A stretch of 64,000 nt of DNA, taken from assembly GCA_964016885.1 (NCBI GenBank), contig OZ024745.1, positions 8,432,001 through 8,496,000 on the forward strand. The letters run 5' to 3'. The translations under genes were made by a program, and so were the position numbers. This document shows, one piece after another, positions 6,521-41,274 of this stretch. The notes beneath the pieces are model-generated. The model made no database searches. It saw only the letters and a list, made by a program, of their open reading frames with translations, and had not been told where the DNA came from. Origin of the DNA: Eledone cirrhosa. Lineage: Eukaryota. Each line of letters opens with the position of its first letter. Positions within the stretch are counted from its first letter, which is position 1.

Positions 6521-6918
6521 ATTGTTTCTACTTTAGGCACAAGGCCAGCAATTAACCAGTGCATTACTGGTACTTTATTTTATCGACCCCGTAAGAATGA
6601 AAGGCAAAGTCAACCTCGGCTGGATTTGAACTCAGATCGTAAAGGGACGTAACTATGCTGGAAAGCATGGCGTCCGACGCTCTACCGATACTGCCAATCC
6701 AACAATAAAATAATAATAATAATGATAATAATAATAATTGTTTCTACTTTTGGCACAAGGCCAGCAATTATCCCAGTGTATTACTGGTACTTTATTGTAT
6801 CGACCACGTAAGAATGAAAGGTAAAGTTAACCTCGGCGGGATTTGAACTCAGATCATAAAGGACGTAACTCTTGCTGTAAAGCATGGCGTCCGACCCTCT
6901 ACCGATACTGCCAATACA
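6521..6918 (-). mobile_element. Two tandem tRNA-derived SINE copies (6521-6701, 6737-6918) separated by (AAT)n
   Basis: Minus strand A-box TGGCAGTATCGG, B-box GAGTTCAAATCC, body GCCTTTCATTCTTACGGGGTCGATAAA, (ATT)n tail. Confidence 0.9.
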
Positions 6919-7179
6919 CCAATAATAATGCTTTCTTTATTAACCACAAGGGTTTACATAAAGTAGACATTAAGGACAGTACAGGACAATACAGGACGGT
7001 ACAAATGGGCATTTCTGCGTGTAAAAAACAAGAAACAGAGGATGTAATAATAGAACAATGAAAAAATTCCCCAATAGGGGGGAGACTTCCGAGGGACATT
7101 CGTGGAGAAAGCCCATTAAAAAGCGACAGTAACCCTGACCACCAGGGCAAGTGCCCTCTCCCAGTTTTCCACCTTTAAT

Positions 7180-9890
7180 TTACAGACACATACTCAGAGT
7201 AGGACCATTCACTCGGGCCATTCTTGCCTCTCTCACCCATCTTTCAACAAAATGCTGGGAAGAGAGCACTTCCCTTTCTACTCTGATTTTCCTTTTCAAA
7301 TGAAATTTGAAAAAGTTAATCAGGGCATCACCGAAGAGGTAAGTGCTCGTCTTCAGCCCTTTCAAACGTGTCCACCATACTATCTCTTTCGCCATGGCCA
7401 CCAGACAGATAAAAACTGCCTGCCCTTCCCGGCTAAAGGAAGAGGGCGGGGAAATCCTCACGATGGACTCAGCTGATAGCTGGATCCGTCCCACACGCGA
7501 CAGCAGGTGTTCGACATAAACCCACAAGTCAGCAATGCTCGGACACTGGACGAGTGCGTGCAGGACGGTTTCGTCGCCCTGCGCGCATCTTGGACATGCC
7601 CGGCCGACGGCACCTCCATGCCTGTAGAGTTTATCCCGAACTGGCAAAGCTCCTCGGTAGCACTGCCAGGCCAGGGATTTCTGGAAGTTGTCCATAGGCC
7701 CCGGCCCGAAAGTTCTTCTGAAGAGATTGGCTAGTTGATTTTCGTCGACGCCTAGAGTTTCCCCAAGTACGTCGTCGCTCTTCTCCTCCACTAATCCTCT
7801 ATAGAACGCCAAGGTGGAGTTTCCACCGATCACATTGCCCGATTGGTCGAGGGCTGTGAGCGCCTGAAGACATTCCAGTCTCCAAGCGCTCCCTCTCAGT
7901 CTTCGCTTGACTCAGGACTGCAGCTCCGTCAAGGAGACGAGCTGTGGAAAGACGCGTCTAGCAAACGGTGACCACACCTGGTCACCGTCGAGGAAGAGGT
8001 AAAGATGTCGTAGCCTGACCGCGTGTCTGCGCATCATCAGCCACGGCATTCCCTCCACGTAGCGGGTTTTGACAGCAGATGGACTGCCTGACCATCGGAG
8101 CGCATCCCTTCGACAAAAAGCGAAAGAGCAAACGCTCCAGCGCGGTCGGGCGGGGCTTAGGACAAGGTACGACGGTCAGGCGGTAGTGTATGACGGACGC
8201 GATATACGCGTTAGCCACCTCCGCTCGACCTTTCAGGGATAGCTTCCTCTCGGCCCATTTCTGGGTGAGAGAAGCCACCCTGCTCGTCACCTCGTCCCAG
8301 TTTTTGTCTGTCTGGAGATCCGGACCGAACCAGACCCCGAGCAATTTAACCGGTCCGTCCGTCCAGCGCCCGACGACGCTATTGGACGGCATGGACCTGC
8401 CTCTCCAGGTGCCGAGCTGCAGGCCCACTGTCTTTTCCTGGTTGATCATTGCTCCTGTTACCGCTTCGTATTCTCTTAGTGTAGTGCCGATCGCCTCGAT
8501 GTGTTTGGCGTTCGACACCACTACGGTGACATCGTCCGCATATGCTGACATCGTCCGCATATGCTGACACAGATCTTCTGTATCCTAGTTCGCGCGGGAC
8601 GCCCCTCAAGGTCTCCAGTTTGTGCAGTAATGGCTCGAGAGTCAATACGTACAAGAGGGACGATAGGGGACATCCTTGGCGGACCGAGCGCATGATGTTG
8701 AACGGTTCCGAAAGGTAACCGTTCACTCTCACCACAGAGCAGATGTCGCTGTGCATGACAACGATCCAGCCTCTGAAGACGGGCCCAAAGCCAGCCGCCC
8801 TCAGGACTGCCGCTAGGTAACGATGGTCGACCCTATCGAATGCTTTCGACTAATCTAAATTGATCAAGGACCCACCCGTGCCAGGTTCCCTAGTTACCCT
8901 CTCTACGATGTATCGCATGAGATGGAGGTTGTCGTGGATGGATCTGTCGGGAATGGCGCGTGTCTTCTCCCTCTGCTCTATTTTTCTCTATTGCTAAAGC
9001 CTTACTAAACCTAATGGACTCTATTCTAATTGCTCTTTTCAGAGTAAACCACCACTTGTTGTTGACGATGGCCCCCGTCAACGCCCGCTTAACTAGTTCG
9101 CTAATCCGGTCTCTGTAGGCCTTGCGCGCTGGTAAGGACGCGTTTAGCTTCCAGTAGCCGGGTCCTCGTCTATGAAGCCTATCTAAGTCAAGTACACAGA
9201 TCACGAATTTGTGGTCCGTGTAGCTGACTATCTTGAATTGTGGACAGCCTATGCTAGACCTATCTATTTCTCTACAAAATACTCTATCTAGATATGATTT
9301 GGATGACCCTATGCGATTTGTCCAAGTCCACATTGGCACACTCGGGAAATCCAATCGGTACCTGTCAGACAGTTCAAAACGCCTGAGCAGGTTGGTGAGG
9401 CTCTTGCACCCTCCTCCCCTATCCGCTAATCCCACAAGTCCCAGCGTGCATCTAAGATCACGTTCCAGTCGCCCACTAACACTAAAGAGCGGCACGTTCC
9501 AAGAAAGGTCTCCAGACACCGGAAGAAATCAGGCCGCCCTGCTCCTGTCGGTGCATAGACGGCCACTAGCCTGAAAGCTTGCTCGTCTCCGCTGGTCACG
9601 TCTAGCACCACCAACTTACCTTCTGTGTCCAGGAAGATGGCCCGTAAGGCGAGATCCAAACCTCTCCGAAAAAGCACAGCAACTCCTCCCCCCGATCCCG
9701 GACGGCAGGGAGATGCGTACACATCGTAGCCGCCGAAGTTCGGTGCGAAAGCCCGTGCTTCGGAGATTCTGGTCTCGCTGATGGCCACTACATCTATGTT
9801 TAGTGACCTGAGGTCGTTGAGCAGGTGGCCCTTCTTCCATGACGACCCCAAGCCACGCGCATTTATGCTGCCTATTCTGAGTGAGGTCAT
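7180..9890 (-). pseudogene. Copy A ORF2 (APE endonuclease, RT, C-terminal zinc finger), frameshifted, ~720-bp internal deletion
   Basis: SINARGL, AISET, GDWN, YLDR, TDH (APE); RQGCPLS, YADD (RT); CPRC..ETVLHALVQC. Confidence 0.92.
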
Positions 9891-9924
9891 GTTGAAATGG
9901 AGTGGAAAAGATGGGAAAGACCAC

Positions 9925-11880
9925 TTACCTTACTTCTCGTAGAGGAAGGATGGTTTGTCCATCCTTTTCACTTCATGTGGCCTCCTCCGGAAGGATGTCC
10001 TTATAAATCCTCCTGGAGAGTGTTTGTCGGAAGTCTCCGATGTCTTTGGGGAATTTTTGTTTTAGTGTCGTGTACGTTTTCTGTGTGATGCGAGTGATTC
10101 GTATGTGTGGAGGTGGTGTGAACTTTTGGGTTGTTGTGTAGTCTTTTTCTGTGATGCTGGTGTTGTGTTGCATGTAGTGTAATAATTGGTTGTTGTTCAA
10201 ATTTAATGCTGTGTAGTGTGTATCGTTTTGGTTGTTTTGTTTTGTTTGCGTTTGTTGTGGGTTTGTTTCTGTTACGCTTTTTGGTGACTTTTGTGGTGTT
10301 AGTGATGGTGGTGTTGGGGTTAATGATGGTGATGGAGTTGGTGTTTGTGGTGATGGGGTTGGTGATGCTGGTGTCGATGGTGGCATATCTGTCCTAACTT
10401 CTTTGTTTGATAATTTATTTGTTTCCCTCTGTATTTTGTTTTTGGAGGGGGAAGGAAGAGAATTTTTTATTTTTTGTTGTTTTTTTTTATTTTTTCCTGA
10501 TACCGTTTCCCACTCCTCGTCGTCACAATCTGTCTCCAGTTGCGATAAGCCGGGGAGTGGAAAATCCTCCACAGGCGTTGGTTTTGGTTGTGGCGTGGTG
10601 GATGGTGTAGGCGCTGGTGCCAGTTCTGGCGCGTTGGGTGGCGGTGGTGTTGGTTTTGCTACTGTTGCTGGGTTTGTTGCTGTTACAGTTGCTTCTGTTG
10701 TTGCTGCTACAGTTGTTGCTGCCATTTCTGCTGCTGGTGGTGTTGATGGTTGAGTCACTGGGGTGGGTAAGAGAGGTGGCCTGAACCTTTTAGCCAGAGG
10801 GCTGAAAGCCCTTAGGTGGGTTCCTTCACCACAAACGACACACCTAGGCCTTCTGCCCTCGACGATTACGGTGAGGTGGCTGCTGTCAGTGAGGTCTATT
10901 ACCTCTGGGATCTCCTCAATGCTTTTATGGTCCGCTTGGATCAGGAGCTCCATCCCAGATCTGGACCAGTTCTCCTGCTTTTCTTTCGCTATTTCGATTA
11001 TATTGGTGTTGGCCTCGATGCCGGCGAGGACGGCAGCCATTAGCCAGGAAATTTCGATGGCCGGTGGAACGTGGGTCACCCTGATCATCACAAGTCTCTG
11101 GCCACAATAGCTTGGGACGAGTGTGTGTCGTCACTTCTTAATGGGGCCATGGAGTGTTCTCTGGCCTCCTGTGGTGTTTCAAAGAACACGTCCACGGTTC
11201 CATATTTCTGCCCACGTCTAATGTGTTTTTTTTTTTGCCCACACATGTCCCAAAGCTTTTTGTATTTGGGACTCGGATGCCCGTTCCACTCGGCGCGATT
11301 TTATGGTAATTGTCCGATAAGACACGGTGTATAGGCGACGATGCTCCATTTTATTAGGTGTGGGGGGCTGACCCAGTACCCTTCTTTCTTTACCATTCTT
11401 TTGGCTTCTTCTAATTCCTCCTGAGTTACCTGGATCGCTTCGCACGTTTTTGCTACTCTCGCAAAAATCAGGGTAATTTTCTTAATTTCATTGTTGCTGT
11501 TATTGTTATCGTTATTTTTGTTATTGTTAATTTTAGTTTCAGTTGTGGTAGTGGTGGTGGCGTCAGTGGTGTTCGGTGTGGAAGAGTTCATTTTGGTTGA
11601 ATTCATTTCGATATCACGCGTTAATTAATTTTTTTCTTTTGTTTCTGTTGTCGCTGTGGTGGTGATGGTGGGGGTTGTCGCTGTGGTGGTGGTGGGGGGG
11701 GGGGGGGGCTTTAACACCTGCAGTCATTGGTAATGGCGGGAAATGAATGTCTGGCTGAGACAAATTTAAAATATTGCTACTGTTTATATTTTTAGTGTTG
11801 GCAAATGTAGTAATATTTACAATGGTGGTGTTGGTGTGAGGTATTAGTTTGTGAGGAAGGAGTGACTTTGAGTACTCCAT
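9925..11880 (-). pseudogene. Copy A ORF1 (zinc-knuckle gag-like), frameshifted
   Basis: Decayed CX2CX4HX4C (CVVCGEGTHLRAFS), Pro/Thr-rich tail; near-identical to 22009-23973. Confidence 0.85.
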
Positions 11881-12134
11881 GATTTTTCAAAGAAATTTGT
11901 TTTGTTTGATAATTATAAAAAGTTAAAATTTTGGGCTCAAGGCCCCAATATTTTTGAGTGTTCTTTTCAGAAATCAATGTATGTGCACTTATATACAGTT
12001 AACAATAAAAAATTTCCATAAATGGCAATTTTAAACAACTGAAAATAACAAACCTTTGCGGAGTTCACGATGATACGATTTACTACGTAGGTCGCCAATA
12101 ATAATAATAATAATAATAATTATAATAATAATAA

Positions 12135-12475
12135 TTGTTACTACTTTTGGCACAAGGCCAGCAATTATTCCAGTGTATTACTGGTACTTTATTGTATCGA
12201 CCCCGTAAGGATGAAAGGCAAAGTTAACCTCGGCGGGATTTGAACTCAGATCATAAAGGGCGTAACTCTTGCTGTAATGCATGGCGTCCCACCCTCTACC
12301 GATACTGCCTCTCCACCAATAATAATAATAATAATTGTTTCTACTTTTGGCACAAGGCCATCAATTACCCACTACATTACTGGTACTTTATTGTATCGAC
12401 CCCGTAAGGATGAAAGGCAAAGTTAACCTCGGCGGGATTTGAACTCAGACCGTAAAGGGACGTAACTATGATGGA
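12135..12475 (-). mobile_element. Two tandem SINE copies (12135-12316; 12335-12475, 5'-truncated) in (AAT)n
   Basis: Same B box, body and tail as 6521-6918. Confidence 0.9.
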
Positions 12476-12578
12476 AATAATAATAATAATGATTTTAATA
12501 ATAATAATAATAAACGAAAGATATATATATATAGTTTATATCATTTCTATTTCATTATATCATACGTATATTATATCG

Positions 12579-12756
12579 TGGATTGGCAGTATCGGTAGAG
12601 GGTCGGACGCTTAGACGCATAGAGTTACGGCCCTTGCCATTCTGAGTTCAAATCCCGCCGAGGTTAACTTTGCCTTTCATCCTTACGGGGTCGATAAAAT
12701 AAAGTACCAGTAATACACTGAGTAATTGCTGGCCTTGTGTCAAAAATAGAAACAAT
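12579..12756 (+). mobile_element. tRNA-derived SINE
   Basis: TGGCAGTATCGG, GAGTTCAAATCC, ends GGCCTTGTGTCAAAAATAGAAACAATT. Confidence 0.9.
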
Positions 12757-19408: not shown

Positions 19409-19448
<40 letters not shown>

Positions 19449-19450
<2 letters not shown>

Positions 19451-21741
19451 AGTTGCATTTATCTTGCTTTATGTTCATACGATTTATCACCAAGTCACAA
19501 CCAGTGACCTCAAGAGACAACAAGGTCCGCCATGTTCAAGAAAGAACATACTTATTCACACATGCATCTTTAGTGTTTAGACTTGTGATGTACTTATATT
19601 GACAGAATATTCCTTAGTATATGGGCAGTTCCCATTAGTACTATCTTTTGTATTTCTCCTATACGCGGGTTTCCTGGGATTTGCGATAAGTAATCATTAG
19701 ACCCCTTAGGTATCATTCCCAGAGCGCCTACAATCACTGGTATTGTTTTAGTTCTCAATTTCCACATTTTTTCCAATTTCTATCTCCAGGTCCTTATACT
19801 TGATCAATTTTTCAAATGTTTTTATAGATACATTCTTGTCTTTTGGAACAGACATATCAATTAGCAGGCATACCCTCTTTTGAAAGTCTTTCAATATTAT
19901 ATCAGGTCTGTTTGCATTCTATTTTTCGGTCTGTATGGATGCTAAAGTTCCACAAGATTGAGATGTGATCTTTTTCAAGTATGGGAGGTGGTTGATGCTC
20001 CCACCAATTCTTTTGATGGGGCAGGTCAAAATGCTTACACATTATCCAATGTATGTATTGTGCAGCTCTGTCATGCCTGTTTAGGTATTCGGTTGGAGCT
20101 ATAGGACTGCACATTGAAATTATATGGTCAATGGTCTCTGGTTGTTTTTTGCATACACGGCATAATGGGCTGCACCCATTTTTTATTATGTTGGCTTGGT
20201 AATTTTTTGTTGGCAGACACTGATCTTGTGCCGATATAATCAGTCCTTCAGTCTCCGATTTCAGTCCAGAGGATGCCAACCACTGATGGATTAAAGTTTT
20301 GTCAACATCAGGACTGTTAGCTCGCTCTGGGTATTTTCCATACAGAGGCTTTTCTTGCCATTTCTTAGCCAGTTTCTGTAGCAGTTCTTTCTTTGCAGTT
20401 ACTTTTACCTGCTTTGCTTTTTCTGTGTTTTCCATTTCAGCAGTAAATGGGACTTCTGAAATTTGTAGTCCATTACTGCATCTTTGTGCATCTTTTGTAA
20501 TGGAATATGATCTTTTGATGCTTTCGTGTTTCAAAACGAGTTTGATCATCCAATCATGTGATTCCCTTAGATATGTAGATAATCCAATTGTTGCAATTTT
20601 CAACGCAATGTCTAACTGGATTAACCCACGTCCTCCTTCTTTCCTAGGGAGATATATTCTATCTATATCTGCCTTAGGGTGATGCATTCTGTGCATGGTT
20701 AAGAGTTTTCGAATTTTTGTATCGAGCCTACGGATCTCTGTGCTTGACCAGTTGATGACATTGTAACTGTAGGTTACTACTGGTATGGCAAGCGTGTTTA
20801 TGGCATCGATCCTATTCCTTGCATTCAATTCCGTTCTTAAGATTGCTCTTACTCTGCGGTAAAATTCCTTCCTTATCCTTTCCCTCATTGTCGAGTGCTT
20901 GATTCCGTCTCCTTCACAAACACCTAGATATTTGTAAGTTTTTTCTTGATCAAGTTCTCTTATCACGTTCCCCCGATCAAGATTAATGTCTGAACTCTTC
21001 AGCAGCTTTCCTCTGGTGAACGTTGCTTTGGCGCATTTGTCTAGTCCAAACTCCATTTTAATGTCATCACTGAACTGCTCCACAGTGGATAATAGCCCTT
21101 GCAATTGTTCATCATTTTTTGCAAATAGTTTCAGGTCATCCATGTAGAACAAGTGATTAATGGTTTTGTCATAGACTTTATATCCATGTTTTGTTTCATT
21201 GAGCATTTTACTTAATGGTATAAGTGCGATGCAGAATAAAAGCGGTGATAAAGAGTCACCCTGAAAAATTCCACAATTAATATTAACTTCTCCAGCTTCC
21301 AGTGATTTTGTTTCACTATTCAAAAGGAGTGTCGTTTTCCATGTCTTCATACTGAATGACAAAAACCTCCTGACAACGGGGGATATTTTGAAAATCTCTA
21401 AACATTTTTCAATCCAACTGTGTGGCAAACTATCGAATGCTTTTTTATAATCTATCCAAGCAATCGATAGATTTTTGTGTCTATTATGACAATCTTCCAG
21501 TATCATTTTGTTAACCAGAAGCTGATCCTTACAGCCATATGAGCCTCGTTTACACCCTTTCTGCTCAATGGGAAATAGGTCATTTGTTATCAGGTGGTCA
21601 TATGTGTATTCAGTTAGGACTGATGTTAAAATGTTATACATTGTGGTCAAGCAAGTTATCGGTCTGTAATTTTTGGGATTGTTTGTCTCATCATTCTTCG
21701 GAAGCAGGAATGTAATGCCGTTAACTAGCCATGAAGGTATC
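19449..21741 (-). mobile_element. R4/Dong-type RLE LINE, 5'-truncated, in (TAA)n
   Basis: RT, CCHC finger and restriction-like endonuclease; (TTA)n at 19409-19448 and 21742-21800. Confidence 0.88.
19594..21741 (-). pseudogene. RT-CCHC-RLE ORF, 5'-truncated, frameshifts near the C-terminus
   Basis: IDYKKAFDS, GIFQGDSLSPLLF, YMDD, YKYLG, CRVC..ETIDHIISMC, RHD, RPD..IDMSVP, PVIVGALG. Confidence 0.9.
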
Positions 21742-24540: not shown

Positions 24541-24541
24541 A

Positions 24542-27906: not shown

Positions 27907-30900
27907 GATCTAAGCGGACGTATTTTGCTCGCTCACAGTAAGTCGCTTTATTTGCCTGTTAAAATTATTTGTTATTAAATATTTCTTGTTGTGTAAGGGA
28001 TATAAGCCCTTAGACTTTGCCCCGTGAAGGGGAAAGTATAATATTTGGGCCTTTTGGCCCAAATATTTGAACTTTTTTTACATGTTAAAAAATTTACGAA
28101 GAAAAAAAAACATGGCTGAGCCACGCCCCCCAGCGATATGTCTGCTGTCGTGCGACAACGACGTGGAAGTTGAGAGGAGCGCTACAGCGAAATTAACACA
28201 AATTGATAACACAAACACCACCACAAACAATGTAAACAAAGACACCAATGATACCAATAAGAACTCTAATTTTGAAAAAAATGACAGTAACAGCGACAAC
28301 GAAAATACAGATAACAAAAAAAAAATAATAAATACAACAACAATATCAACACCACTAACATGAAAACAAATAGCGACAACACCAACAGCAACAATACCAA
28401 CTGCACCGAGAACAACGGTGGCAACAAAGACAACAATGATAACAGCGACAGTGCTAACAACAACACCAACAAGAACAACGTCAACGACCACAACACCCCC
28501 AACGAAAACAAGAAGAACACTTTCGCTGCGGCAGCAGCAAAAAAGAGGCCATGCTTCAACATGGACCTCTCAAACAAAGATGAAAAGTTAGCCCAGGCAT
28601 GGAAGCTCATCAAGCAAGAGCAAACCTGGGCCAACTTAACTGTCCCGGTAGAAGCTATTGAGGCAGTGGAGCGCAGAACGGTGCATTATAGATGCATCTC
28701 AGCACAAACCAAAAGGGCAGCTTTAATCCCACAAGAAGATGTCGAAGTCGCGCTGAGGTGCATCAGAGAAGACACCGAATACATAGAGAGGGGCAGACAG
28801 TACGGCACAATTTCGGTGTTGTTCAAGTCAGAAGCCCTCGCTATGAAACACGCTATGACTCCTTGCAAAACCAGCAAGGTCATAATGTACCCCTCCCACA
28901 TGGGAGAAAGAACGGCCCGTCTCCACTTTCCTAGAATCCCACCAGGACTTGACATGTAGTGGCTTCTGGGATGTGTGATTGTGGAGGGGACGGATACCGT
29001 CCCTATAGAAGTGACCAGAACGGCCATAGAGGACTGGTCCGGGGTTGACCTGGAGATCCTTCTCCAAATCAGACCCGAGAATGTGAAGACAATCCCGGAC
29101 CACATCCGCCTTCAGAATGGGACGGTCATTCACATTATGACCGAAGGCAAGAGGCCGCAGTGTTTTTTTTTGTGGGGAAAAAACCCATTTGCGAGCCTTC
29201 TGCGCTCAACTGCTGAAAGAGGCAAGTAGTCGAAAGGCTCCACTGCTGCCGACGCCGGGGCGAGGACCACAACCAACACCAGCACCGGCAAAACCACCAA
29301 CAACAACACCAATAGAAAGACCACCACCAAAATTGACCACCCAGGGGAGAAACGAGGAAAGCTGTTAAATTACCCCTCCCCCCCAAAATACACACACCAA
29401 TAAAACCATAAACATACATACAGACACACTTACAGACACAGACCCCTCATCTACCAGTAGTGAAGATGAGGGAAAACCAAAATCCCCCAAAATACAAAAA
29501 AGGAAACACAAAAAGAAAAAAAAACTCAATAAAGCACAAAAGCACCCACAATAAAAAACGCAGACACCACCCACGCAAACATCTCTCCAATAACACCAAC
29601 ATCAACACCACCATCACCATCACCAGAATCCCCCAAACGCAAACAACCGAAACAGACGCAAGAACAAATATACACACAAACATCTGAAACCACAGACACC
29701 GCACTCACAACAAACACAGATACAACCGAAACAACACCACCAAAACCATTACCACCACAACCACGCAAACAAATAAAATCACACCAACAAAACATACAAA
29801 ACTTCGTGCTCGTCAGGAGGGCCAACAAGGAACTGATGGCCCTCGTAGCACGAAGTGAAAATATACAAAAGGAGGGGGAAATTTTTAAATCGAGCACATT
29901 TCGCGTGCCGGAAGATTTGGTTCTGGTGCGAATGGCGCTCGATATATTCAAAGAAATACGAGACAGCTTTCCTCGGGACGTGGGAACCCCGAACGTAAAA
30001 CCCACTTCAAGACTTTTAAAGGGGTTCCCAAAAGAAACCCCACCAACTATGGAGGTCGAACAACCCGACCTTCACAAGAGCCCGGAAGGTAAGTAAACCT
30101 TCCTCTCTCTCTTTTTAACCTGCCAACATGGCCGTATTAAGAGTAGGATGTTTAAATGTTCGAGGCCTGGGATCGTCCTGGAAGCAGGGTCACCTGCTCA
30201 ATGACCTCAGATCTATAGAAATGGATGTAATTGCCGTCAGCGAGACCAGGATTTCCGACACGCGCGCACTAGCCCCCATTTTCGACGACTATCAGATCTT
30301 TGCATCTGTTAGCCGGCCGGGAATATGAGTGGGGTGGCAGTGCTGTTTAGAAAGGCCTGGATCTCGAGGTAAGGTCGATCTTCCGGGACCCGGACGGGAA
30401 GTTGGTGGTCCTGGACGTGAACAATAACGAAGGTGGTGCCTTTAGACTGGTGGCCGTCTATGCTCCTACTGGGGCAGGACGGCCGGACTTCTTTAGACGC
30501 CTGGAAGTCTTTCTGGGTACGTCTCGCCCTTTAATGTTAGCGGGGGACTGGAACGGCATCTTAGACGCTGGGACTGTGTGGAAATATCCGATAGGAGCGA
30601 AGGGTGCAAAAGCCTCAAGAACCTGATCAGCCAGTTCCAACTGTCTGACAGGTACCGACTAGATTTCCCTAATGCGCCAGTGTGGACCTGGGCTAACCGC
30701 ATAGGGTCATCTAGATCGTATATAGACAGGATATTCATTAGGAAAATAGACAGAAATAGTGTAAGCTGTCCACGTTTTGAAACGGTCGCCTATTCAGATC
30801 ACAAGTTTGTGATCTGTATGGTCGACCTAGATAAGACGCGTAGGTTAGGACCTGGTTACTGGAAGCTAAACATGTCATTTCCGGTACGTAAGGCTTACAG

Positions 30901-33407
30901 GGACCAGGTCAACAATTTAGTTAAGAAAAAGTTGACAGGGGGAGTCGGCAACAATGGATGGTGGGGGGCTCTCTAATGTCGATAGAGTTTAGCAAAGAAA
31001 TAGCGTTAGAGAAAAATAGAAAGGAGGGGGAGTTGGTAGATAAGTTAGACGAGGCTATTGGTAGTGGCATTGTAACTGACGTGCTAGCGGCGAGAATGGC
31101 ATGAGACCATTTCTTCAATGCGAAACACGAAGGTTGCATTGTCAGAGCTAAGGCGCGTGCTCTGAGAAACGAGGGAACCAAAGCTGTTCGATGGGCCCGC
31201 GTGGCAGAGGCGCAGCGTGGTAATAAAACCACGATTCGGTCTTTGACGGATCGAGACGGGCACGAGCTGAGAGATTCCGAGAGGATGTGTGAGGCCTTTC
31301 GCCAACATTTTGCTCGGTTGTTCGGGGGAAGTGGCGGGTCAGAGATGGTGGCGGACTTCAGTCCCTACCTCGATGGCTTGTCGCAACTCTCGACGGCTGA
31401 CGCTGGGCGCTGCGAAAGGCCAATTACTTCAGCCGAGATTCAGGATGCCCTTGTCGGCTGCATGAGGCGCAAGTCACCCGGTTTGGATGGTCTGCCCTAC
31501 GAGCTTTACGTAAATATGCCAGACTTGTTCTCCAATCTCCTCGAAGCCCTCTACTGCGACTGGCAGCAAAACGGGAGTATTCACAGTTCTGTAAGCCGGG
31601 GTGTAGTGACGCTGATAAGGAAAGACGAGAGCAAGAGAGACACATTAGACAATTTCAGGCCCATAACTCTGCTCAACACAGAGTTTAAGATTTTGGCCAG
31701 GGTGTTAGCGAAGAAGTAGTGCGCTTGTCGTCGGGGATTTGGTTGGGGAGGCGCAAACTTGCGCAATCCCAACCAGGTCCATACACGACAACCTCCACCT
31801 AATGCGATACATCATAGAGAGGGTAGTGTGTAAACCTGGCTTCGGTGGGGCTCCAATTTAGATCAATCGAAAGCATTCGATAGGGTCGACCATCGGTACC
31901 TGGAGGCTGTCCTCAAGGCGGCTGGCTTCGGCCCCGTCTTCAGAAGCTGGATCGCTGCAATGCACAGCCGCACCTGCTCGATGGTCAAAATTAATGGCCA
32001 CCTCTCGGAACCGTTTCAGGTCTCCCTTCTGTACGTATTGACTCTCGAGCCTTTACTGCGGAAGCTGGAGCTGTTGCAGGGCATCCCGCTCGAACCGGGA
32101 CGCGGAAAGGCTGTGTCGGCTTATGCGGACGACATCACTGTGATGGTGTCGGACACCTCAGAAATCGAGGTGGTCGGCAACTTATTGGAGGAATATGAAA
32201 GGTTGACGGGAGCAAAACTTAACCCGGAAAAGTCGGTGGGCTTGCAACTCGGCACCTGGGGAGGCAAGTCCATGCCGTCCAACAGCGTTGTTAGGCGCTG
32301 GACCGGTAAAGTTGCTAGGGGTTTGGTTCGGGCCAGACCTCCAGGTGGATAAGAATTGGGACGAGGTGACGGGCAGGGTAGCCAGTCTCACCCAGAAATG
32401 GGCTGGGATGAAGCTATCACTGAATGGTCGGGCGGAGGTGGCGAACGCGTACATCGCGTCCGTCATCTACTACCGTCTGACTGTCGTCCCTTACCCCCGT
32501 TCGCGCCTCGCCATCTTGGAGCGGCTCCTCTTCAAATTCTTGTGGAGGGGTCAGGTTCCGCTGGTGAGGCGGTCCATCTGCTGCCATCACCCTCTACGTG
32601 GAGGGCTGGGCATGCCGTGGCTAATGATGCGCAGGCACGCCCTGAGGCTGCGGCATCTTCAGATATTCTGCCTAAACGGTGAACAGGTGTGGTCGCCGTT
32701 TGTCAGACGGGCCTTTCCGCAGCTCGTGTCTTTGACTGAGCTGCAGTCCTGGGTCAAGAAGAGACCGAGACTGGGTGACTGGCATCTGGAATGTTGCCAG
32801 GCACTCACTGCCCTCTACCAGGCGAGCAATGCGGTCAGTGGAACTTCCACTCTCGAGTTCTATAGAGGATTAGTGGTGGGCAAGTGCGACGACGCACTCA
32901 GAGAGGATCTGGGAGTCAACGAAGTCGAACTAACCAGTCTGTACCGGAGGACTTTCGAGCCGGGACGATGGATAATTTCCAAAAATCCCTCGCTTGGCAG
33001 TGCTATCGGCGGGCACTGCCGGTTCGAGATAAACTCTACAGGCACGGAAGTGCTGTCAGACGGACCTGCCCGAGATGCGCGCAGAACGACGAAACCGTTC
33101 TGTACGCACTCGTCCAGTGTCCGTGCATTACTGACTTGTGGAGTTATGTTGGATAACTGTTGTCGCGTGTAGAACGGATCCTGCTATCGGCCGAGTCCAT
33201 AGTGAAGATCGACCCGCCGCCTTCTTTTGGCCAGGAAGGGCAGGCAATTTTCCTCTGTCTGGTGGCAGTAGCGAAAGAGGTTGTATGGTGGACGAGGTTG
33301 AAAGGACTGAAGACAGACATTTTTCTCTTCGGCCAATCCCTCATCAACTTTTTCAAGTTTCACTTGGAAAGGAAGGTGAGGGTGGAGAGAGAAGTGCTTC
33401 CCCCCCC
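27907..33407 (+). mobile_element. Tx1-like LINE copy C (distinct family), degenerate, 3' end replaced
   Basis: Starts after (TTA)n; ORF1 remnants 28112-30096; ORF2 remnants from 30128 (CLNVRGL, GDWN, SDH, FRPITLLN, YADD, CPRC). Confidence 0.9.
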
Positions 33408-35154
33408 CCATTACTGCACAAACTGGGGGCGATGAGGGGTGTCCCACGCGAACTAGGATGAGGGAAATCCGAGTCGGCTTACGCTGACGACGTCACCGTG
33501 GTGGTGTCGAGCACCAGACACGTCCAGATGCTCGGTACCGCTCTCAAGGAATACAAAGCGGTGACAGGAGCAAAGATAAACCAGGAAAAGTCGGTGGGCT
33601 TGCAGCTCGGCACCTGGAGAGGCAAGTCCATGCCGTCCGACAACGTCGTGGGGCGTTGGACGGACGGACCGGTTAAATTGCTCGGGGTCTGGTTCGGACC
33701 GGACCTCCAGATGGAGAAAAACTGGAACGAGGTGACGAGCAGGATGGCCTCCTTCACCCAGAAATGGGCCGAGAGGAAGCTGTCCCTGAAAGGCCGGGCG
33801 GAGGTGGCGAATGCGTACATCGCATCCGTCATCTGCTACCGCCTCACCGTCGTCCCTTGCTCCAGCTCAACTCTCACCAAAATGGAGCGCCTCCTCTTCC
33901 GCTTTTTGTGGAAGGCACGCGCCCCATGGTCAGACGATCCATCTGCTGTCAACACCCGTTGCGTGGAGGACTGGGCATGCCATGGCTGATGATGCGCAAA
34001 CATGCGCTGAGGCTGCGACACCTCTGGTGCTTCCTTGATGGTGAACAGGTGTGGTCGCCGTTCGCCAGGCACGTTTTCCCACAGCTCGTCTCCTTGACGG
34101 AGCTGAAGTCCTGGGTCAGAAAATGACCGAGGGATAACGCTTGGAAACTAGAATGTAACCAGGCGCTCACTGCCCTCTGCCAGCTGGACACCAGTATCGG
34201 TGGAACATCCACCTCGGCGTTCTATAGAGGACTAGGGAAAAGGAAGAGCGACGACATTCTCGGAGAGAACCTGGGCGTCGAAGAAGATCAGCTGTTTGCT
34301 CTCTTCCGGAGAACTTTCAGCCCAGGGCCTATGGATAACTTCCAAAACTCCCTGACCTGGCAGTGCTACCGGGGAGCGTTGCCGGTTCGAGATAAGCTCT
34401 ACAGGCACGGAAGTGCTGTCAGCCGAGCCTGTCCCAGATGCACGCAAAGCGACGAAACCGTCGTGCACGCACTCGTTCAGTGCCCGAGCATTGCTGACTT
34501 GTGGAGCTATGTCGAACAGTTGCTGTCGCGTGTGGGACTGATCCGGTTGTCGACTGAGTCCATTGTGCAGGTAGTCTCGCCGTCTTCCTTCGAGGAGGAA
34601 GGGCAGGCGGTTTTCATCTGCCTGGTGGCCATGGCGAAAGCGATTGTGTGGTGGATAAGGTTAAAAGGGTTAAAGACAGACACTTTCCTCTTCGGCGAAT
34701 CCCTAATTAACTTTTTCAAGTTTCACTTGAAGAAGAAAATCAGGGTGGAGAGGCAAGTGCTGCCTTCTAGCAAGTTTGTTGAAAGGTGGGTGAATGTAGC
34801 GAGAATGGTCCGAGTGAACGGGACCGCTCTGAATATACGTCTGTAGTTTGAGAAATGGAAAAATTGAGAGAGGTCGCTTGCCCTGGTAGTCAGGGTGGCC
34901 GTGGTCTTTTGTGTGGTTTTCGCCACGAGTAACCCTCGGAGGTTTCCCCCCCCCCCCCATTGGGGAACTTTTCATTGTTTCAATTTTCATTTTTATTGTT
35001 TATATATATATATATGTTTCTATGTCCTTTTTTTCTTTTCTTATATAAATAATAAAAATATTTACACGCACAAAACCCACATCGTACCGTCCTGTACCGT
35101 CCTGTGCCGTCTGTAATATTTTTCTTGATGTCAGCCCTTGTGGCCAATAAAGAA

Positions 35155-35193: not shown

Positions 35194-35410
35194 GAATGCT
35201 ATGGTTGACGGAGGCTCGGCTCTGTAAGGTATTGTAAATTTTGAACGCTATAACAATTGTAAATTGTTTAAAACTTTTACCAACTTGTAGACAAAAACAC
35301 CCTCTTCCTCGTGAGAGGGGTCTTTCTGCCCGTTATTTGGCCCTTCGGGGTTAAATAACTGCTTATTGGGGTGTTGTGCCCAATATTTATTTTAAACAAA
35401 AAAAAAAAAC

Positions 35411-37540
35411 ATGGCTACGAAAAAGAATTTTCATAGGTCACTCCCACTCATTCCGTCTTCTTCTTCCTCAATCGTCACTACAGCAGAGAGAAGATTGTCT
35501 CTCTCCCTCCCTTCTTTAAATGTGTCTCTCCCCCTCCCTTCTCTTTGGCAAGCGACGACAGAAAAGAAAAGTCTCGTGCAAAGCGTGCAAGATTTCTCCA
35601 CGACGACAACGACGACGAAATAGGTGTGCGGGAAATACGAAAACCCATTTCATTCGTCTGACGTCAGGAATAATAGCAGTAGCAGCCGTAATAACAACAG
35701 CAACAGTGACAATGAAAACAACAGTAGCAGCCGCAACAGCATCAGCAGCAGCATAAACAACAACAGCATTAGCAACAGCAACAACAACAACAACCACAGC
35801 AACAGCGGCGGCAGCAGTAGTCGTAGTACCTGCAGCAACAACAAAAGTAACAGCAGCTCTGACGACAACAACAACAACAACAACAGCAAAGAAAAACCAA
35901 TCTCGTTTGCAGGTATCGCGAAGAACCTGGAAACAATCCTCATAACAAATGAGGAATTAGAGGAAGCGAAGAAGATGGTGACAAAAACTGGACACCGAGC
36001 AATCTGCAAGGCAGCGGAAATATTTTTCGAAACCCAACAGCACTGTACGGTCACGTACCGTACAGTAAGTACAAAATCCCGTAGGGTGGAAAGAGCCACA
36101 GAGGCTCAAATACAAAAAGCCTTGGGGTCTGTGTGGCAGCAGAAAACACACATCACCCGAGGCAAGAAATATGCCACCGTAGACGTACTTTTTGCCACAC
36201 CCCAGGAGGCAAAGGCTCAGTCCGTAGTGATCCTAAGGAGCGAGGAAATGGTGTTGGTGCCCTCCTACTGCGGGCAAAAAATTGTGAGGGTCAAACTGAC
36301 CCACGTCCCCCCCCCTCCCGGGATGGCCCATTCTTGGCTGGCCGCGTCTGTCCTCGTCGGAATCGACGACAAAACAACTGTACTGCAAGTACAGAAAAAA
36401 GTAAGAGAAGATTGGGTCGGCACCTCCATTGAGATGTTAATCCAAACCAACCAGGAGTGCATCGAAGCTATCCCGGATGTGATAGACTTCGATAACTGCA
36501 CTCAACTGCCCATAAGTGTTGAGAGCAAACGCCCGAAATGCTTTCGCTGTGGATCGAAGACTCACCTCAGGGCCTTCTGCAACGAGAAGACCCTGAGAAA
36601 GGAGAAAACCCCCCTCCTTCCGAAACCGGCTCCACGGCTACCAGCAACAGGACAAGCGGCAACCAGGAACGATAGGTTCGTGGCACCCATACCCACGCCA
36701 CGGAAATCAAAAACAGCAGCAGCAGTGGAAGTATTAACAACAAAAACAACAGCAATACCAAATGCAGCTGCAACAGAGACTCCAGTGCAAACATCACCAA
36801 CAACAACAAGTGAAAGAGTGGAGCTGGTACCCCTCCCCGACCTCACAGAATCAGACATGGAGTGTGAGGTGGGAGAGGGATGGAAAAAGGTCGTAAGAAG
36901 GCACAAACGCAGAAGCAGCGCATTGTCGCCTTTGAAAAGGGAGGAAAGAAATGAAAAAAGGGTAAAGTCTACTGCAAAGAGACTCACAGCAGCAACACCA
37001 CCAACACCATCACCACCCACACTAGCACCACCATCACCACCGCCAACAACCCCACCGCCAACAACAACAACACCTTCAACAACAACACCTTCAACACCAC
37101 CACCACAAGCACCAACATCGCAAACACAACAACAAAACACACACACCCAGCAAAAACGACAAGAAAATAGCAGAACCACACCCCACCCCCAGAAAAACAA
37201 ATGCACAGCAATAAATACACACAAGAAACTAATGACTTACATAATTGAACACACAGACATTTCACAACACGACTACATAATACCAGCACCAATCAAAACG
37301 CCAACTAACATAAGACTGCTAAAAATAGCACAGAAACAATACACAAACATTAAAACGAAATTCCCCAACGCAGTTGGTGATTTCAGAGACCTAGGAGGAA
37401 CTATCAACCGAAGAGTATATTCGGACATACTCATAGAAGAGCCGATGACCAGCCGAAGGGGCGATTCAACGGTCCCTTCACCAGACGATCAAGTGAAAAG
37501 GGATGTAAAAACCATCCCTCCTCTACGAAAAGTACGGTAA
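35411..37540 (+). pseudogene. Copy D ORF1 (~709 codons), one in-frame TAG at 35621-35623
   Basis: ORFs 35411-35623 and 35624-37540 share a frame; CFRCGSKTHLRAFC knuckle; N/S-rich and P/T-rich linkers. Confidence 0.85.
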
Positions 37541-37575
37541 GTGGTCTTTCCCATCTTTTCCACTCTATTTTAAAC

Positions 37576-40500
37576 ATGACCTCACTCAGAATAGGCAGCA
37601 TAAATGCGCGTGGCTTGGGGTCGTCATGGAAGCAGGGTCACCTGCTCAACGACCTCAGGTCACTAAACATAGATGTAGTGGCCATCAGCGAGACCAGAAT
37701 CTCCGAAGCACGGGCCTTCGCACCGATCTTCGGCGGCTATGATGTGTACGCATCTCCCAGCCGTCCTGGATCAGGGGGGAGGACTGCTGTGCTTTTTCGG
37801 AGAGGTTTGGATCTCGCCATACGGGCCATCTTCCTGGACCCAGAGGGTAAGTTGGTGGTGCTGGACGTGACCAGCGGAGACGGGCAAGCTTTCAGGCTAG
37901 TGGCCGTCTATGCCCCGACAGGAGCAGGGCGGCCTGATTTCTTCCGGCGTCTGGAGACCTTTCTTGGAACGTCCCGCTCTTTAGTGTTAGTGGGCGACTG
38001 GAACGGGATCTTAGAAGCACGCTGGGACTGTGTGGGATTAGCGGATAGGGGAGGATGGTGCAAGAGCCTCACCAACCTGCTCAGGCGTTTTGAACTGTCT
38101 GACAGGTACCGATTGGATTTCCCGAATGTGCCAATGTGGACTTGGACAAATCGAATAGGGTCATCCAGATCATATCTAGATAGAGTATTTTGTAGGGAAA
38201 TAGATAGGTCTAGCATAGGCTGTCCACAATTCAAAATAGTCAGCTACACGAACCACAAATTCGTGATCTGTGTGCTTGACTTAGATAGGCTTCATAGACG
38301 AGGACCCGGCTACTGGAAGCTAAACGCGTCCTTACCAGCGCGCAAGGCCTACAGAGACCAGATTAGCGAACTAGTTAAGCGGGCGTTGACGGGGGCCATC
38401 GTCAACAACAAGTGGTGGTTTGCTCTGAAAAGAGCGATTAGAATAGAGTCCATTAGGTTTAGTAAGGCTATAGCAATAGAGAAAAATAGAGCAGAGGGAG
38501 AATTAGTTAGAAAATTAGACGAGGCGCTTAGCAAAGGCATTGCGACCGACGTGCTTGCGGCGAAATTGGCCCTTGACCAATTCTTCAATGCAAAGCACGA
38601 AGGCTGCGTTGTCAGAGCAAGGGTGCGTGCTCTCAGACACGAGGGGACGAAAGCCGTTCAATGGGCCCGAGTGGCGGAGGCGCGTCGTGGCAACAAAGCC
38701 ACGATCCGGTCTTTGGTGGACCACGACGGGCGCATGCTACTCGATCCCGGGCAAATGTGTGAAGCTTTTCAGCGACACTTCGCTCAGCTGTTCGGGGGCA
38801 GCGGTGGGCCGGGTCGAGGGATGGACTTTGGTGTTTACCTCGACGGACTGCCGCGGCTCTCGGCCACTGAGGCGAAGTGTTGCGAAAAGCCGATAACAGC
38901 CGCTGAAGTAAGGGAGGCAATGACTGGCTGCACAAGGGGTAAATCGCCTGGTTTGGATGGTCTGCCCTATGAACTTTACGTACAGATGCCAGACTTGTTC
39001 GGAGGCCTCTTGGCGGACGTCTACTGCAACTGGCAACATAACGGGAGAATTCCCAGTTCTGTGAGCAGAGGAGCGGTGGCGCTGCTGAGAAAGGATCCGA
39101 ACAAGAGGGATAACATAGATAATTTCCGGCCCATAACTCTGCTAAACACAGAGTTCAAGATTTTGGCCAAGGTGCTAGCAAAGAGGTTGGCGCTTGTCGT
39201 TGGTGGTCTGGTGGGAGAGGCGCAGACATGCGCCATTCCCGACAGATCCATCCACGACAACCTCCAGCTCATGCGATACATCGTAGAGAGGGTAGCTAGG
39301 GAACCTGGCACGGGTGGGTCCTTGATCAATTTAGATCAGTCGAAAGCTTTCGATAGGGTCGAACATCGTTACCTAGCGGCAGTCCTGAGGGCGGCTGGCT
39401 TTGGGCCCGTCTTCAGAGGCTGGATCGCTGCCATGCACAGCGACATCTGCTCTGTGGTGAGAGTGAACGGTCACCTGTCGGAACCGTTCAACATCATGCG
39501 CTAGGTCCGCCAAGGATGTCCCCTCTCGTCCCTCTTGTACGTATTGACTCTCGAGCCATTACTGCACAAACTGGAGACGTTGAGGGGCGTCCCGCGCGAA
39601 ATAGGATGCGGAAGATCCGTGTCAGCATATGCGGACGATGTCACCGTAGTGGTGTCGAACGCCAAACACATCGAGGCGATCGGCACTACACTAAGAGAAT
39701 ACGAAGCGGTGACAGGAGCAATGATCAACCAGGAAAAGTCAGTGGGCCTGCAGCTCGGCACCTGGAGAGGCAGGTCCATGCCGTCCAACAGCGTCGTCGG
39801 ACGCTGGACGGACGGAGCGGTTAAATTGCTAGGGGTCTGGTTCGGTCCGGACCTCCAGGCGGACAAAAACTGGGACGAGGTGACGAGCAGGGTGGCTTCT
39901 CTCACCCAGAAATGGGCCGAGAGGAAGCTATCCCTGAAAGGTCGAGCGGAGGTGGCTAACACGTACATCGCGTCCGTCATCTGCTACCGCCTGACCGTCG
40001 TACCTTGTCCTAAGCCTCGCCTGACTGCGCTGGAGCGTTTGCTCTTTCGCTTTTTGTGGAAGGGACGCGCTCCGATGGTCAGGCGGTTCATCTGTTGTCA
40101 ACACCCGCTACGTGGAGGGCTGGGCATGCCGTGGCTGATGATGCGCAGGCACGCGCTCAGGCTACGACATCTCCACCTCTTCCTCGACGGTGATCAGGTG
40201 TGGTCGCCGTTTGCTAGACACGTATTTCCCCAGCTCGTTTCCTTGACGGAGCTGCAGTCCTGGGTCAAGCGAAGACCGAGAGGGAGCGCCTGGAGACTGG
40301 AATGTCTTCAGGCGCTCACAGCCCTCGACCAATCGGGCAATGTGATCGGTGGAAACTCCACCTCAGCGTTCTATAGAGCATTAGTGGAGGGGAATAGCGA
40401 CGACGTACTTGGGGAAACTCTAGGCGTCGACGAAAATCAACTAGCCAATCTCTTCGGAAGAACTTTCGGGCCGGGGCCTATGGACAACTTCCAGAAATCT

Positions 40501-40995
40501 CTGGCCTGGCAGTGCTACCGAGGAGCCTTGCCAGTTCGGGATAAACTCTACAGGCATGGAGGTGCCGTCAGCCGGGCATGTCCGAGATGCGCGCAGGGCG
40601 ACGAAACCGTCCTGCACGCACTCGTCCACTGTCCGAAAATTGCTGACTTCTGGGTTTATGTCGAACACCTGCTGTCGCGTTTAGGACGGATCCGGCTATC
40701 ATCTGAGTCCATCGTGAGGATTGCCCCGCCCTCCTCCTTTAGCCGGGAAGGGCAGGCAGTTTTTATCTGTCTGGTGGCCATGGCGAAAGAGATAGTATGG
40801 TGGACACGTTTGAAAGGGCTGAAGACGAGCACTTACCTCTTCGGTGTTGCTCTGATTGACTTTTTCAAATTTCATTTGAAAAGGAAAATCAGAGTAGAGA
40901 GGGAAGTGCTCTCTTCCCAGCATTTTGTTGAAAGATGGGTGAGAGAAGCAAGAATGGCCCGAGTGAATGGGCCTACTCTGAGTATATATCTGTAA
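37576..40995 (+). pseudogene. Copy D ORF2 (~1139 codons; APE-RT-zinc finger), one nonsense codon at 39502-39504
   Basis: ORFs 37576-39504 and 39535-40995 share a frame; TAG replaces the TCG (SVRQGCPLS) seen in copy A. Confidence 0.95.
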
Positions 40996-41243
40996 ATTAA
41001 AGGTGGAAAACTGGGAGAGGGCACTTGCCTTGGTGGTCAGGGTCATTGTGGCCTTTTACTGGGCTTTCTCCACAAATGTCCCTCCGAAGTCTCCCCCCTA
41101 TTGGGCAATTTTTCATTGTTATTTTTTGTTACATCCTCTGTTTTTGTTTTTTACACGCAGAAATGCCCATTTGTACCGTCCTGTATTGTCCTGCACTGTC
41201 CTTAATGTCTACTTTATGTAAACCCTTGTGGTTAATAAAGAAA

Positions 41244-41274
<31 letters not shown>

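What the first reader, a model, noticed from the sequence alone, without database searches (positions are those of the whole stretch)
6521..41250. A CUUGU pentaloop hairpin shared by Tx1 3' ends and SINE 3' ends, with stem covariation
Seen: just before the AGAAA-type end and (ATT)n tail, Tx1 A/D have AACC-CTTGT-GGTT (41221-41233; 6942-6954 minus), C2 has GCC-CTTGT-GGC (35134-35144), the 26.9-kb end has GGCT-CTTGT-GGCC (26942-26954), and SINEs have TGGC-CTTGT-GCCA or -GTCA (e.g. 12148-12160 minus, 12730-12742). The loop is invariant while stems change compensatorily. Known: stringent LINEs such as L2 recognise a 3' stem-loop that partner SINEs share, whereas mammalian L1 relies on poly(A). Inference: this SINE is mobilised by the Tx1 ORF2 through a structural signal, which explains the shared (ATT)n tails and SINE stacks flanking copy A.
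Basis: partly seen in the sequence, partly recalled or inferred. Interest (0 to 1): 0.75.

Follow-up and report, generated by a model that had tools for sequence, protein, structure and literature searches.

The report
Octopus-type SINE shares Tx1 hairpin tail
In this genome, likely an octopus relative's, a very abundant short repeat ends in nearly the same 25 letters, with a small predicted RNA hairpin, as a whole lineage of L1/Tx1-type jumping genes and likely borrows their copying enzyme, although the hairpin is tiny, its loop varies and its role as the signal is untested.

Summary
All six motifs are present. The LINEs are L1/Tx1-group. Eleven families end in a 3-4 bp hairpin, then an A-rich spacer, then the tail. 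The SINE's last 25 nt match eight of those families at 14-18 of 25 (p 0.004 or less), against 6-11 for CR1, RTE-type and Dong-like ends. SINE target duplications have L1-type length (median 14.5 bp) and start with ATTA; CR1 and RTE-type ends rarely have one. The partnership is likely (about 0.75).

(2) Covariation rests on about four events, and pair 4 is unpaired in 6 of 13 types. (3) In full-length SINE RNA the hairpin is predicted mostly unfolded. (4) (ATT)n is mainly target, not tail: 1 of 58 unbiased SINEs has four or more units, a CR1 family also ends in (ATT)n, and sister LINEs keep the hairpin with (TATC)n. The hairpin as the signal is about even odds.

My searches found no tail-sharing animal Tx1/SINE pair in print. 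The scan has reported this pairing several times before, in this and other genomes.

The parts
35194..41245 (+). LINE copy D, full length (family F0): CCHC knuckle at 36539, ORF2 (APE, RT, zf-RVT) with an in-frame stop at 39502-39504; starts right after the (ATT)13 run that follows C2
41221..41233 (+). Terminal hairpin of D, AACC-CTTGT-GGTT, followed by AATAAAGAAATC and (ATT)9
41093..41106 (+). Upstream 3'UTR hairpin (CCCC-CTATT-GGGG type; one mismatch in this copy), found in all 8 main LINE families, not seen in the SINE
35365..35383 (+). 5'UTR hairpin of D just before ORF1 (TTGGG...CCCAA stem)
6930..12096 (-). LINE copy A (family F0 3' end), internally deleted and frameshifted; 5' end abuts the (ATT)n of a SINE
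6942..6954 (-). Terminal hairpin of A, AACC-CTTGT-GGTT
11931..11948 (-). 5'UTR hairpin of A (loop CTTGA)
33408..35154 (+). LINE copy C2, 5'-truncated (family F3)
35133..35145 (+). Terminal hairpin of C2: three pairs GCC/GGC, fourth position A.C
27907..33407 (+). LINE copy C1, 5' part and ORFs, 3' end missing; 5'UTR hairpin at 28044-28063
26925..26966 (+). About 40-nt, severely 5'-truncated LINE end (3'UTR like family F2) in ATT-rich DNA; hairpin 26942-26954
21801..24543 (+). LINE copy B, 5' half only, starting after (TTA)19; CCHC knuckle at 23066
21947..21965 (+). 5'UTR hairpin of B; contains the 11-mer GGCCTTGTGCC identical to the SINE 3' hairpin
6733..6925 (-). SINE directly 3' of copy A; Pol III A and B box motifs; hairpin TGGC-CTTGT-GCCA at 6751-6763
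6518..6706 (-). SINE stacked behind the previous one; hairpin TGGC-CTTGT-GCCT at 6535-6547 (three pairs)
12130..12317 (-). SINE 5' of copy A; hairpin 12148-12160
12330..12467 (-). 5'-truncated SINE; hairpin 12348-12360
12575..12753 (+). SINE; hairpin 12730-12742 (GTCA variant)
26390..26573 (+). SINE with a 10-bp target duplication; stem broken in this copy (TGTC/GCCA)
47579..47704 (+). 5'-truncated SINE; hairpin 47680-47692
59199..59390 (-). Older, longer SINE type; hairpin 59211-59223
19409..21741 (-). Dong/R4-like LINE (clade label recalled from its C-terminal motif) with (TAA)n tail: same microsatellite, opposite strand; no shared hairpin
26972..27878 (-). 3' fragment of a second Dong/R4-like LINE (label recalled), tail to tail with the 26.9-kb LINE end

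Best explanation
The SINE ends in a 25-nt segment that matches the 3' end of this L1/Tx1-group LINE lineage, and it is likely copied by that lineage's ORF2 enzyme, which is predicted to pick its RNA by this short end (a 3-4 bp stem, a YYNRU loop and a fixed A-rich spacer) rather than by poly(A). Shown: the shared end and its fixed spacing (16 nt from loop to tail in the SINE and most LINE families, 17 in two); no poly(A) on any copy examined; LINE tails matching their landing repeats (ATT clade in (ATT)n, sister clade in (TATC)n); SINE duplications of about 14 bp starting with ATTA. Inferred: ORF2p binds the 3' element; the endonuclease nicks at an ATAAT-type site; the RNA's terminal AUU pairs with the freed DNA end and primes reverse transcription; a second nick about 14 bp away makes the duplication. 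Each insertion leaves ATT-type sequence, so LINEs and SINEs stack. The stacks come from target choice, not from the hairpin.
For: Tail-anchored identity over 25 nt: short SINE 14-18 and long SINE 14-18 against eight LINE families (shuffle p from 0.004 to the floor of 5e-5), against 6-11 for five other ends; 1 of 57,177 random 25-mers reached 18. Hairpin kept in 11 LINE types whose ORF2 C-terminal parts are as little as about 60% identical to F0; 46 of 52 cells paired, score 0.340 against 0.139 +/- 0.049, all slid controls lower. Pairing probability 0.75-0.98 in 6 of 7 LINE families with 100 nt of context. SINE duplications of 9 bp or more in 24 of 34 unbiased full-length copies, median 14.5; PMC6007223 (passages) gives modes of 13-15 bp for L1-clade and 10-12 bp for RTE. 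CR1: 3 of 28 with a duplication. RTE-type: 3 of 51. Four SINE-body/LINE-end chimeras are joined exactly within CCTTGTG. Stem-loop recognition is established for L2-clade LINEs (PMC4176376, passages).
Against: The stem is 3-4 bp and worth only -0.6 to -3.1 kcal/mol alone; fold z-scores of the eight ends were -2.0 to +0.1. In full-length SINE RNA the hairpin has probability 0.03-0.11, because the segment pairs with the SINE body instead. No LINE family has the SINE's G-C at pair 2 (3 hits, all with SINE-type upstream sequence), and none of the first 100 of 541 SINE ends with C on the 5' side has the compensating G. Unanchored, the SINE tail aligns better to the LINE 5'UTR hairpin (scores 28-29) than to the F0 3' end (14-20), which scores no better than the best chance match in the body (21-23). 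Only 2 of 34 unbiased SINEs sit in (ATT)3 or longer, against 12 of 15 full-length ATT-clade LINEs. LINE duplications in unique DNA were recoverable in only 4 of 25, so the footprints could not be compared directly. SINEs look older (median 7% and 12% from majority) than the sampled LINE families (0.7-3.4%), but those were selected young and the SINE subfamilies were pooled. The SINE lacks the upstream 3'UTR hairpin that the LINE families keep.
Confidence: 0.58

Rival explanations
1. Same partner, but no hairpin reading. ORF2p would take any RNA whose 3' end pairs with the nicked ATT site, or read a linear CCUUGUG/AGAAA motif. The small stem is conserved in the LINE for another reason, for example 3'-end processing beside AAUAAA, and is a relic in the SINE.
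For: Hairpin mostly unfolded in full-length SINE RNA; pair 4 unpaired in 6 of 13 types; a similar hairpin sits in the LINE 5'UTR, where it cannot be a 3' signal; 3' repeats alone correlate with duplication starts in RTE systems (PMC6007223, passages).
Against: The SINE has no AAUAAA yet keeps loop, three pairs and spacing; its fixed differences at pair 2 are two transversions (or a one-pair deletion) that keep pairing; loop letters vary while the stem holds.
Confidence: 0.22
2. The SINE took its tail from an older, less target-specific member of this L1/Tx1 lineage that is now extinct or was not sampled. The young microsatellite-bound copies in the window (A, C2, D) are relatives, not the main driver.
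For: Best matches are to the TGCC-stem families of the (TATC)n clade (17-18 of 25), not to F0 of copies A and D (14-16); SINEs are dispersed (2 of 34 in (ATT)3 or longer) and look older.
Against: SINE duplications start with ATTA like the ATT clade's target; some SINEs are under 2% diverged; a search with a distant homologue returned only families 71-78% identical to F0 in the 20 loci examined of 62 matches. This rival is compatible with the best explanation at lineage level.
Confidence: 0.12
3. The SINE is moved by another clade (CR1, RTE or Dong/R4) and the resemblance is chance or convergence.
For: A CR1-type family with at least 4,851 ends also finishes in (ATT)n and has its own hairpin; RTE-type ends are common (22 in 340 kb of random DNA); my list of other LINE ends comes from about 1 Mb and is incomplete.
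Against: Their ends match the SINE at only 6-11 of 25; CR1 and RTE-type copies rarely have duplications; Dong tails have the opposite polarity; 134 of 138 SINE-type ends had SINE body upstream and none of the other 4 was a new LINE end.
Confidence: 0.08

Closest known systems
Stringent L2-clade pairs: eel UnaL2/UnaSINE, zebrafish ZfL2-1 and ZfL2-2 (PMC4176376, passages)
   Same: 3' stem-loop next to a short terminal repeat, no poly(A); stem partly exchangeable, loop more conserved.
   Different: Here the LINE is L1/Tx1-group, the stem is only 3-4 bp, three of five loop positions vary between families, and nothing has been tested experimentally.
Stringent L1-clade pairs: maize/sorghum ZmSINE2 and ZmSINE3 with LINE1-1_ZM; Chlamydomonas SINEX-3_CR with L1-1_CR (PMC3472496, passages; PMC3747384, passages and Table 1)
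   Same: L1-group LINE sharing a 3' end with a SINE; the maize pair has a hairpin with compensatory changes.
   Different: Those are plant and algal, share about 50-80 nt and, for the algal pair, end in poly(A). This is an animal lineage sharing about 25 nt, with microsatellite ends and targets. Table 1 (58 pairs) lists no animal L1 or Tx1 pair.
SINEU with Tx1-Mar in crocodilians (PMC4494074, abstract and sections 3, 15, 16)
   Same: A SINE inferred to be mobilised by Tx1, with a shared but, for some SINE families, weaker target preference.
   Different: That inference rests on target, age and snRNA-derived heads; the sections read give no shared 3' tail or hairpin.
Microsatellite-targeting Tx1 families Kibi (TC)n, Koshi (TTC)n and crocodilian (TTCC)n/(TTTC)n families; Dong on TAA (PMC4494074; PMC3812793, passages)
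   Same: LINEs that insert into simple repeats.
   Different: Targets here are (ATT)n and (TATC)n in sister clades that keep one 3' hairpin; relationship to Kibi or Koshi was not tested.

Membership tests
L1/Tx1-group non-LTR retrotransposon | ORF2 with APE endonuclease, RT and C-terminal zinc motif, closest to L1 among solved enzymes | tested here: met
   Pfam Exo_endo_phos, RVT_1, zf-RVT; best PDB match human L1 ORF2p E 2e-52 against R2 1e-20
Tx1 clade | Type I ORF1 with CCHC knuckle rather than Transposase_22 | tested here: met
   C-X2-C-X4-H-X4-C at 36539 and 50290, and C-X2-C-X4-H-X4-C at 23066 in copy B; no Transposase_22 hit; criterion from PMC5203782, passages
Tx1 clade | Target-sequence preference | tested here: met
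   12 of 15 full-length ATT-clade copies follow (ATT)3 or longer; 9 of 15 sister-clade copies follow (TATC)n and 0 follow (ATT)n
Tx1 clade | RT phylogeny grouping with named Tx1 elements | not testable with these tools
   No homologue labelled Tx1 was returned
Stringent SINE/LINE pair | SINE 3' end homologous to the LINE 3' end | tested here: met
   14-18 of 25 anchored identity, p 0.004 or less; short, and not significant without anchoring
Stringent SINE/LINE pair | Conserved stem-loop with significant covariation | tested here: inconclusive
   3 of 4 pairs change on both sides, 0 of 500 shuffles reach the score, but related sequences, about four events, structure drawn from these sequences; low pairing probability in the SINE
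Stringent SINE/LINE pair | Same insertion footprint | tested here: inconclusive
   SINE duplications median 14.5 bp, ATTA start; LINE duplications recoverable in 4 of 25 and 3 of 15; SINE much less microsatellite-bound
Stringent SINE/LINE pair | Overlapping activity periods | tested here: inconclusive
   SINE median 7-12%, minimum 1.6%; LINE families 0.7-3.4%, selected young
Stringent SINE/LINE pair | 3' element required for mobilisation | not testable with these tools
   Needs a cell assay
tRNA-head SINE | [quoted passage not shown] | tested here: inconclusive
   A and B box motifs present in the copy checked; ARAGORN and Rfam found no tRNA match
Deu/Nin-domain SINE | Deu/Nin central domain | not tested
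   Resemblance recalled only; tRNA-Deu and tRNA-Core are reported as the main octopus SINEs (PMC8967140, passages)

The most novel reading that the evidence does not exclude
An animal Tx1 lineage is a stringent retrotransposon that selects RNA through one of the smallest such signals, a three-pair hairpin with a YYNRU loop 16 nt from the end. It kept that signal while switching its DNA target between (ATT)n, (TATC)n and a satellite, carries a similar fold in its 5'UTR, and drives a SINE of roughly a quarter-million copies. That would give an animal counterpart to human L1 in which template choice and target choice can be separated.
Probability: 0.4. Interest if true: 0.7.

Novelty: new variant of a known kind. 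Interest (0 to 1): 0.5.

Why it matters
Whether L1-group enzymes were ancestrally stringent and later relaxed to poly(A) is an open question argued from plant and algal cases (PMC3472496, PMC3747384). A tail-sharing animal Tx1/SINE pair with a minimal signal, and natural uninterrupted ORF2 copies (1139 aa in L078), would make it testable beside the solved human L1 ORF2p structures. It would also name the likely driver of a very abundant SINE in this genome (30 ends in 340 kb of random DNA). The kind of partnership is known, so this extends a rule to a new clade rather than adding a new mechanism.

Tried and rejected
Rfam on the SINE stack and on the 5' end of copy B: nothing meaningful. Metagenome relatives (80 loci, 23-41% identical): no such hairpin before AATAAA, one chance hit; many loci lack the 3' end, so the motif looks lineage-limited but this is weak. 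Search for a LINE family with the SINE's stem plus AATAAA: 3 hits, none a family. Search for a SINE subfamily with the LINE's stem: none in the first 100 of 541. Search for a tail variant with a non-C closing base: 40 hits, mostly mutated 5'UTRs and a tandem array. Sequencing runs: no RNA holder listed; contigs from four runs showed no difference at 8% or more inside either hairpin, and the two runs from other organisms had little or no cover there, so they add nothing. Protein atlas gave no result. An extended lower stem (U-rich tract with AUAAAG) is predicted for F0 and F3 but the F2/F4 upstream sequence does not offer it, so I did not adopt it. Automatic boundaries for truncated LINEs were often wrong or ran into neighbouring LINEs (38 ATT-clade and 10 TATC-clade copies excluded); two tips of the tree (both L034) are such artefacts and were ignored. 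A family-37 row with A.C at pair 3, seen only in single diverged copies, was (84.1% paired, 2 of 500) and left out. I rejected the reading that the 11-mer identity between the SINE tail and the B-type 5'UTR shows a captured SINE: homologous 5'UTR hairpins with other loops exist in the two other 5'UTR types.
Full report
Observation. The window is G000:C5:8432001-8496000 of a 3.0-Gb genome. A named homologue of the LINE comes from the octopod Argonauta and is 69% identical, so the host is likely an octopus relative (inference). A three-pair stem around CTTGT is not rare: 21 of 127 sites in the window have one, 9 of them outside element ends and 5'UTRs. The claim therefore depends on position and on families, so I sampled the genome.

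The LINE. Copies A-D encode APE, RT and zf-RVT. An uninterrupted 1139-aa ORF2 from another locus matches human L1 ORF2p best among solved structures. ORF1 has a CCHC knuckle, the type associated with Tx1 in non-mammalian animals (PMC5203782, passages). No reference-based tree was possible, so 'Tx1' rests on these features and on target preference. L1-Tx1, CR1, RTE and Dong-R4 are the main recently active LINE groups reported in Octopus vulgaris (PMC13282606, passages).

Family-level ends. From 132 LINE ends in about 1.0 Mb of fetched DNA, eight clusters emerged, holding 93 ends; 39 were singletons. Majority forms: AACC-CTTGT-GGTT (F0, copies A and D), AGCC-CTTGT-GGCC (F3, copy C2), GGCC-CTTGT-GGCT or -GGCC (F2, F4), TGCC-CCTGT-GGCT, TGCC-CTTGT-GGCT, CGCC-CTTGT-GGCA and CGCC-CCTGT-GGCA. 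Later searches added TGCC-CTAGT-GGCA, TGCC-CTGGT-GGCA (two loci and one locus) and TGCC-TTTAT-GGTA (six loci). The loop is YYNRT, not invariant. A tree splits an (ATT)n clade from a (TATC)n clade and places the AACC/GGTT state on one branch. The SINE has TGGC-CTTGT-GCCA in 29 and -GCCT in 21 of 81 ends found without using the hairpin.

Covariation. On 13 representatives that I chose (11 LINE, 2 SINE), 46 of 52 cells pair, three of four pairs change on both sides, and the score is 0.340 against 0.139 +/- 0.049, with 0 of 500 shuffles and no slid control reaching it. The tool warns that relatedness inflates this, and the structure came from these sequences. Counted as events it is about four: pair 2 once (SINE against LINE), pair 3 once, pair 4 about twice, with pair 4 unpaired in 6 of 13. 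An earlier set with a row unpaired at pair 3 gave 84.1%. This is suggestive, not significant in the R-scape sense. Folding agrees for the LINE (probability 0.75-0.98 in 6 of 7 families with 100 nt of context; F2 0.02-0.04) but not for full-length SINE RNA (0.03-0.11; 0.6-0.9 with 15 nt of context), where the segment pairs with the body.

Homology of the ends. Anchored at the tail, the last 25 nt of both SINE types match eight LINE families at 14-18 positions (shuffle p 0.004 to 5e-5), and CR1, RTE-type, two Dong-like and one unknown end at 6-11 (p 0.07 or more). One of 57,177 random 25-mers reached 18 against the best family. Spacing from loop to tail is 16 nt in the SINE and most families. 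Without anchoring, the match to F0 is no better than chance matches in the LINE body, and the best match is the 5'UTR hairpin. The labels CR1, RTE-type and Dong-like are recalled from motifs, not tested by phylogeny. No LINE family with the SINE's exact stem was found.

Tails and targets. Full-length ATT-clade LINEs follow (ATT)3 or longer in 12 of 15 cases; truncated ones in 3 of 25 by an error-prone automatic boundary, with 38 more excluded because they abut other LINE sequence. Sister-clade copies follow (TATC)n in 9 of 15 and (ATT)n in none. In an unbiased SINE set (first 30 genome hits plus 34 random 10-kb regions), 1 of 58 has four or more ATT units, 2 of 34 full-length copies lie in (ATT)3 or longer, 24 of 34 have duplications of 9 bp or more (median 14.5) and 19 of those 24 start with ATTAT or ATTAA. 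Background for (ATT)3 in 30 nt is 0.2-0.8%. In loci chosen around LINE ends the figure rises to 18 of 69, which is what the window shows. The duplication length fits the L1-clade mode of 13-15 bp better than the RTE mode of 10-12 bp (PMC6007223, passages). CR1 copies also end in (ATT)n but show duplications in 3 of 28, and RTE-type copies in 3 of 51. So the (ATT)n runs do not single out the partner, and the stacks reflect target choice. The looser SINE targeting has a precedent in SINEU (PMC4494074, sections 3 and 16) but may also mean an older, less specific driver. Age estimates are too biased to decide. Outputs were cut; the counts used come.

Mechanism. Most likely the SINE, a probable Pol III transcript (A and B box motifs), presents a 3' end that ORF2p of this lineage accepts. 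The endonuclease nicks at an ATAAT-type site, terminal AUU pairs with the primer, and a second nick about 14 bp on makes the duplication. The shared end, tails, targets and duplications are shown; binding, folding and nicking are inferred from L1 and L2 work (PMC4176376, passages; general TPRT model recalled). I put the lineage-level partnership at about 0.75 and the hairpin as the recognised feature at about 0.5.

Novelty. Nine literature searches returned no animal SINE sharing a 3' tail with a Tx1 or L1 element. The 58-pair table lists L1-type tails only for maize, sorghum and Chlamydomonas (PMC3747384, section 21 part 1; PMC3472496, passages). Bivalve surveys name CR1, CR1-Zenon, L2 and Nimb partners (PMC11481361, PMC4824008, PMC4758252; passages). 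PMC5786205 was read in passages and added nothing specific. No supplements were read, most subscription papers are not held, and Repbase could not be searched, so a prior annotation is possible. Earlier notes of this scan report the same pairing in this and other genomes; they are unchecked and not independent. Verdict: a real, partly overstated observation, and a likely new variant of a known kind.

Noticed in passing
window 21947-21965, 11931-11948 (-), 28044-28063, 35365-35383: All three 5'UTR types of the LINE carry a TTGGG...CCCAA hairpin shortly before ORF1, with variable loops; the B type contains an 11-mer identical to the SINE 3' hairpin and is followed by similar A/T-rich sequence.
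   Followed up: partly
window 41093-41106, 7069-7082 (-), 34952-34965: A second 3'UTR hairpin, CCCC-CTATT-GGGG, lies 80-160 nt upstream in all eight main families; some sister families have CCTC/GAGG arms, a compensatory change. Not seen in the SINE.
   Followed up: partly
L261-L264, about position 1500: Four chimeras with a SINE body and a LINE end (three different LINE end types), joined within the shared CCTTGTG; template switch or deletion between stacked neighbours.
   Followed up: partly
window 19409-21800 and 26966-27906: Dong/R4-like LINEs use the same microsatellite on the opposite strand and meet the Tx1-like elements head to head or tail to tail.
   Followed up: no
L332 and L336, after the LINE 3' end: A family with the CTAGT loop is followed by a tandem repeat of about 65 nt; several such hits lie about 6 kb apart, suggesting a satellite target.
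   Followed up: no
L265-L294: An abundant CR1-type family, many with 945-aa open frames, ends in its own hairpin (GTGC-ACCTGA-GCAC) and (ATT)n.
   Followed up: partly
window 35194-41245 and 21801-24543: Family F0 carries two unrelated-looking 5' ends and ORF1 types on nearly the same ORF2, suggesting 5' module exchange.
   Followed up: no
window 53230-53304: A 75-nt inverted piece of RT sequence ends the LINE copy at 50.9-53.3 kb.
   Followed up: no
window 16089-18857: 29-bp satellite, 95 copies, 96% matches.
   Followed up: no
L017, minus strand 1300-1850: Four SINE pieces in tandem share the same duplication sequence, a repeatedly used site or a local duplication.
   Followed up: no
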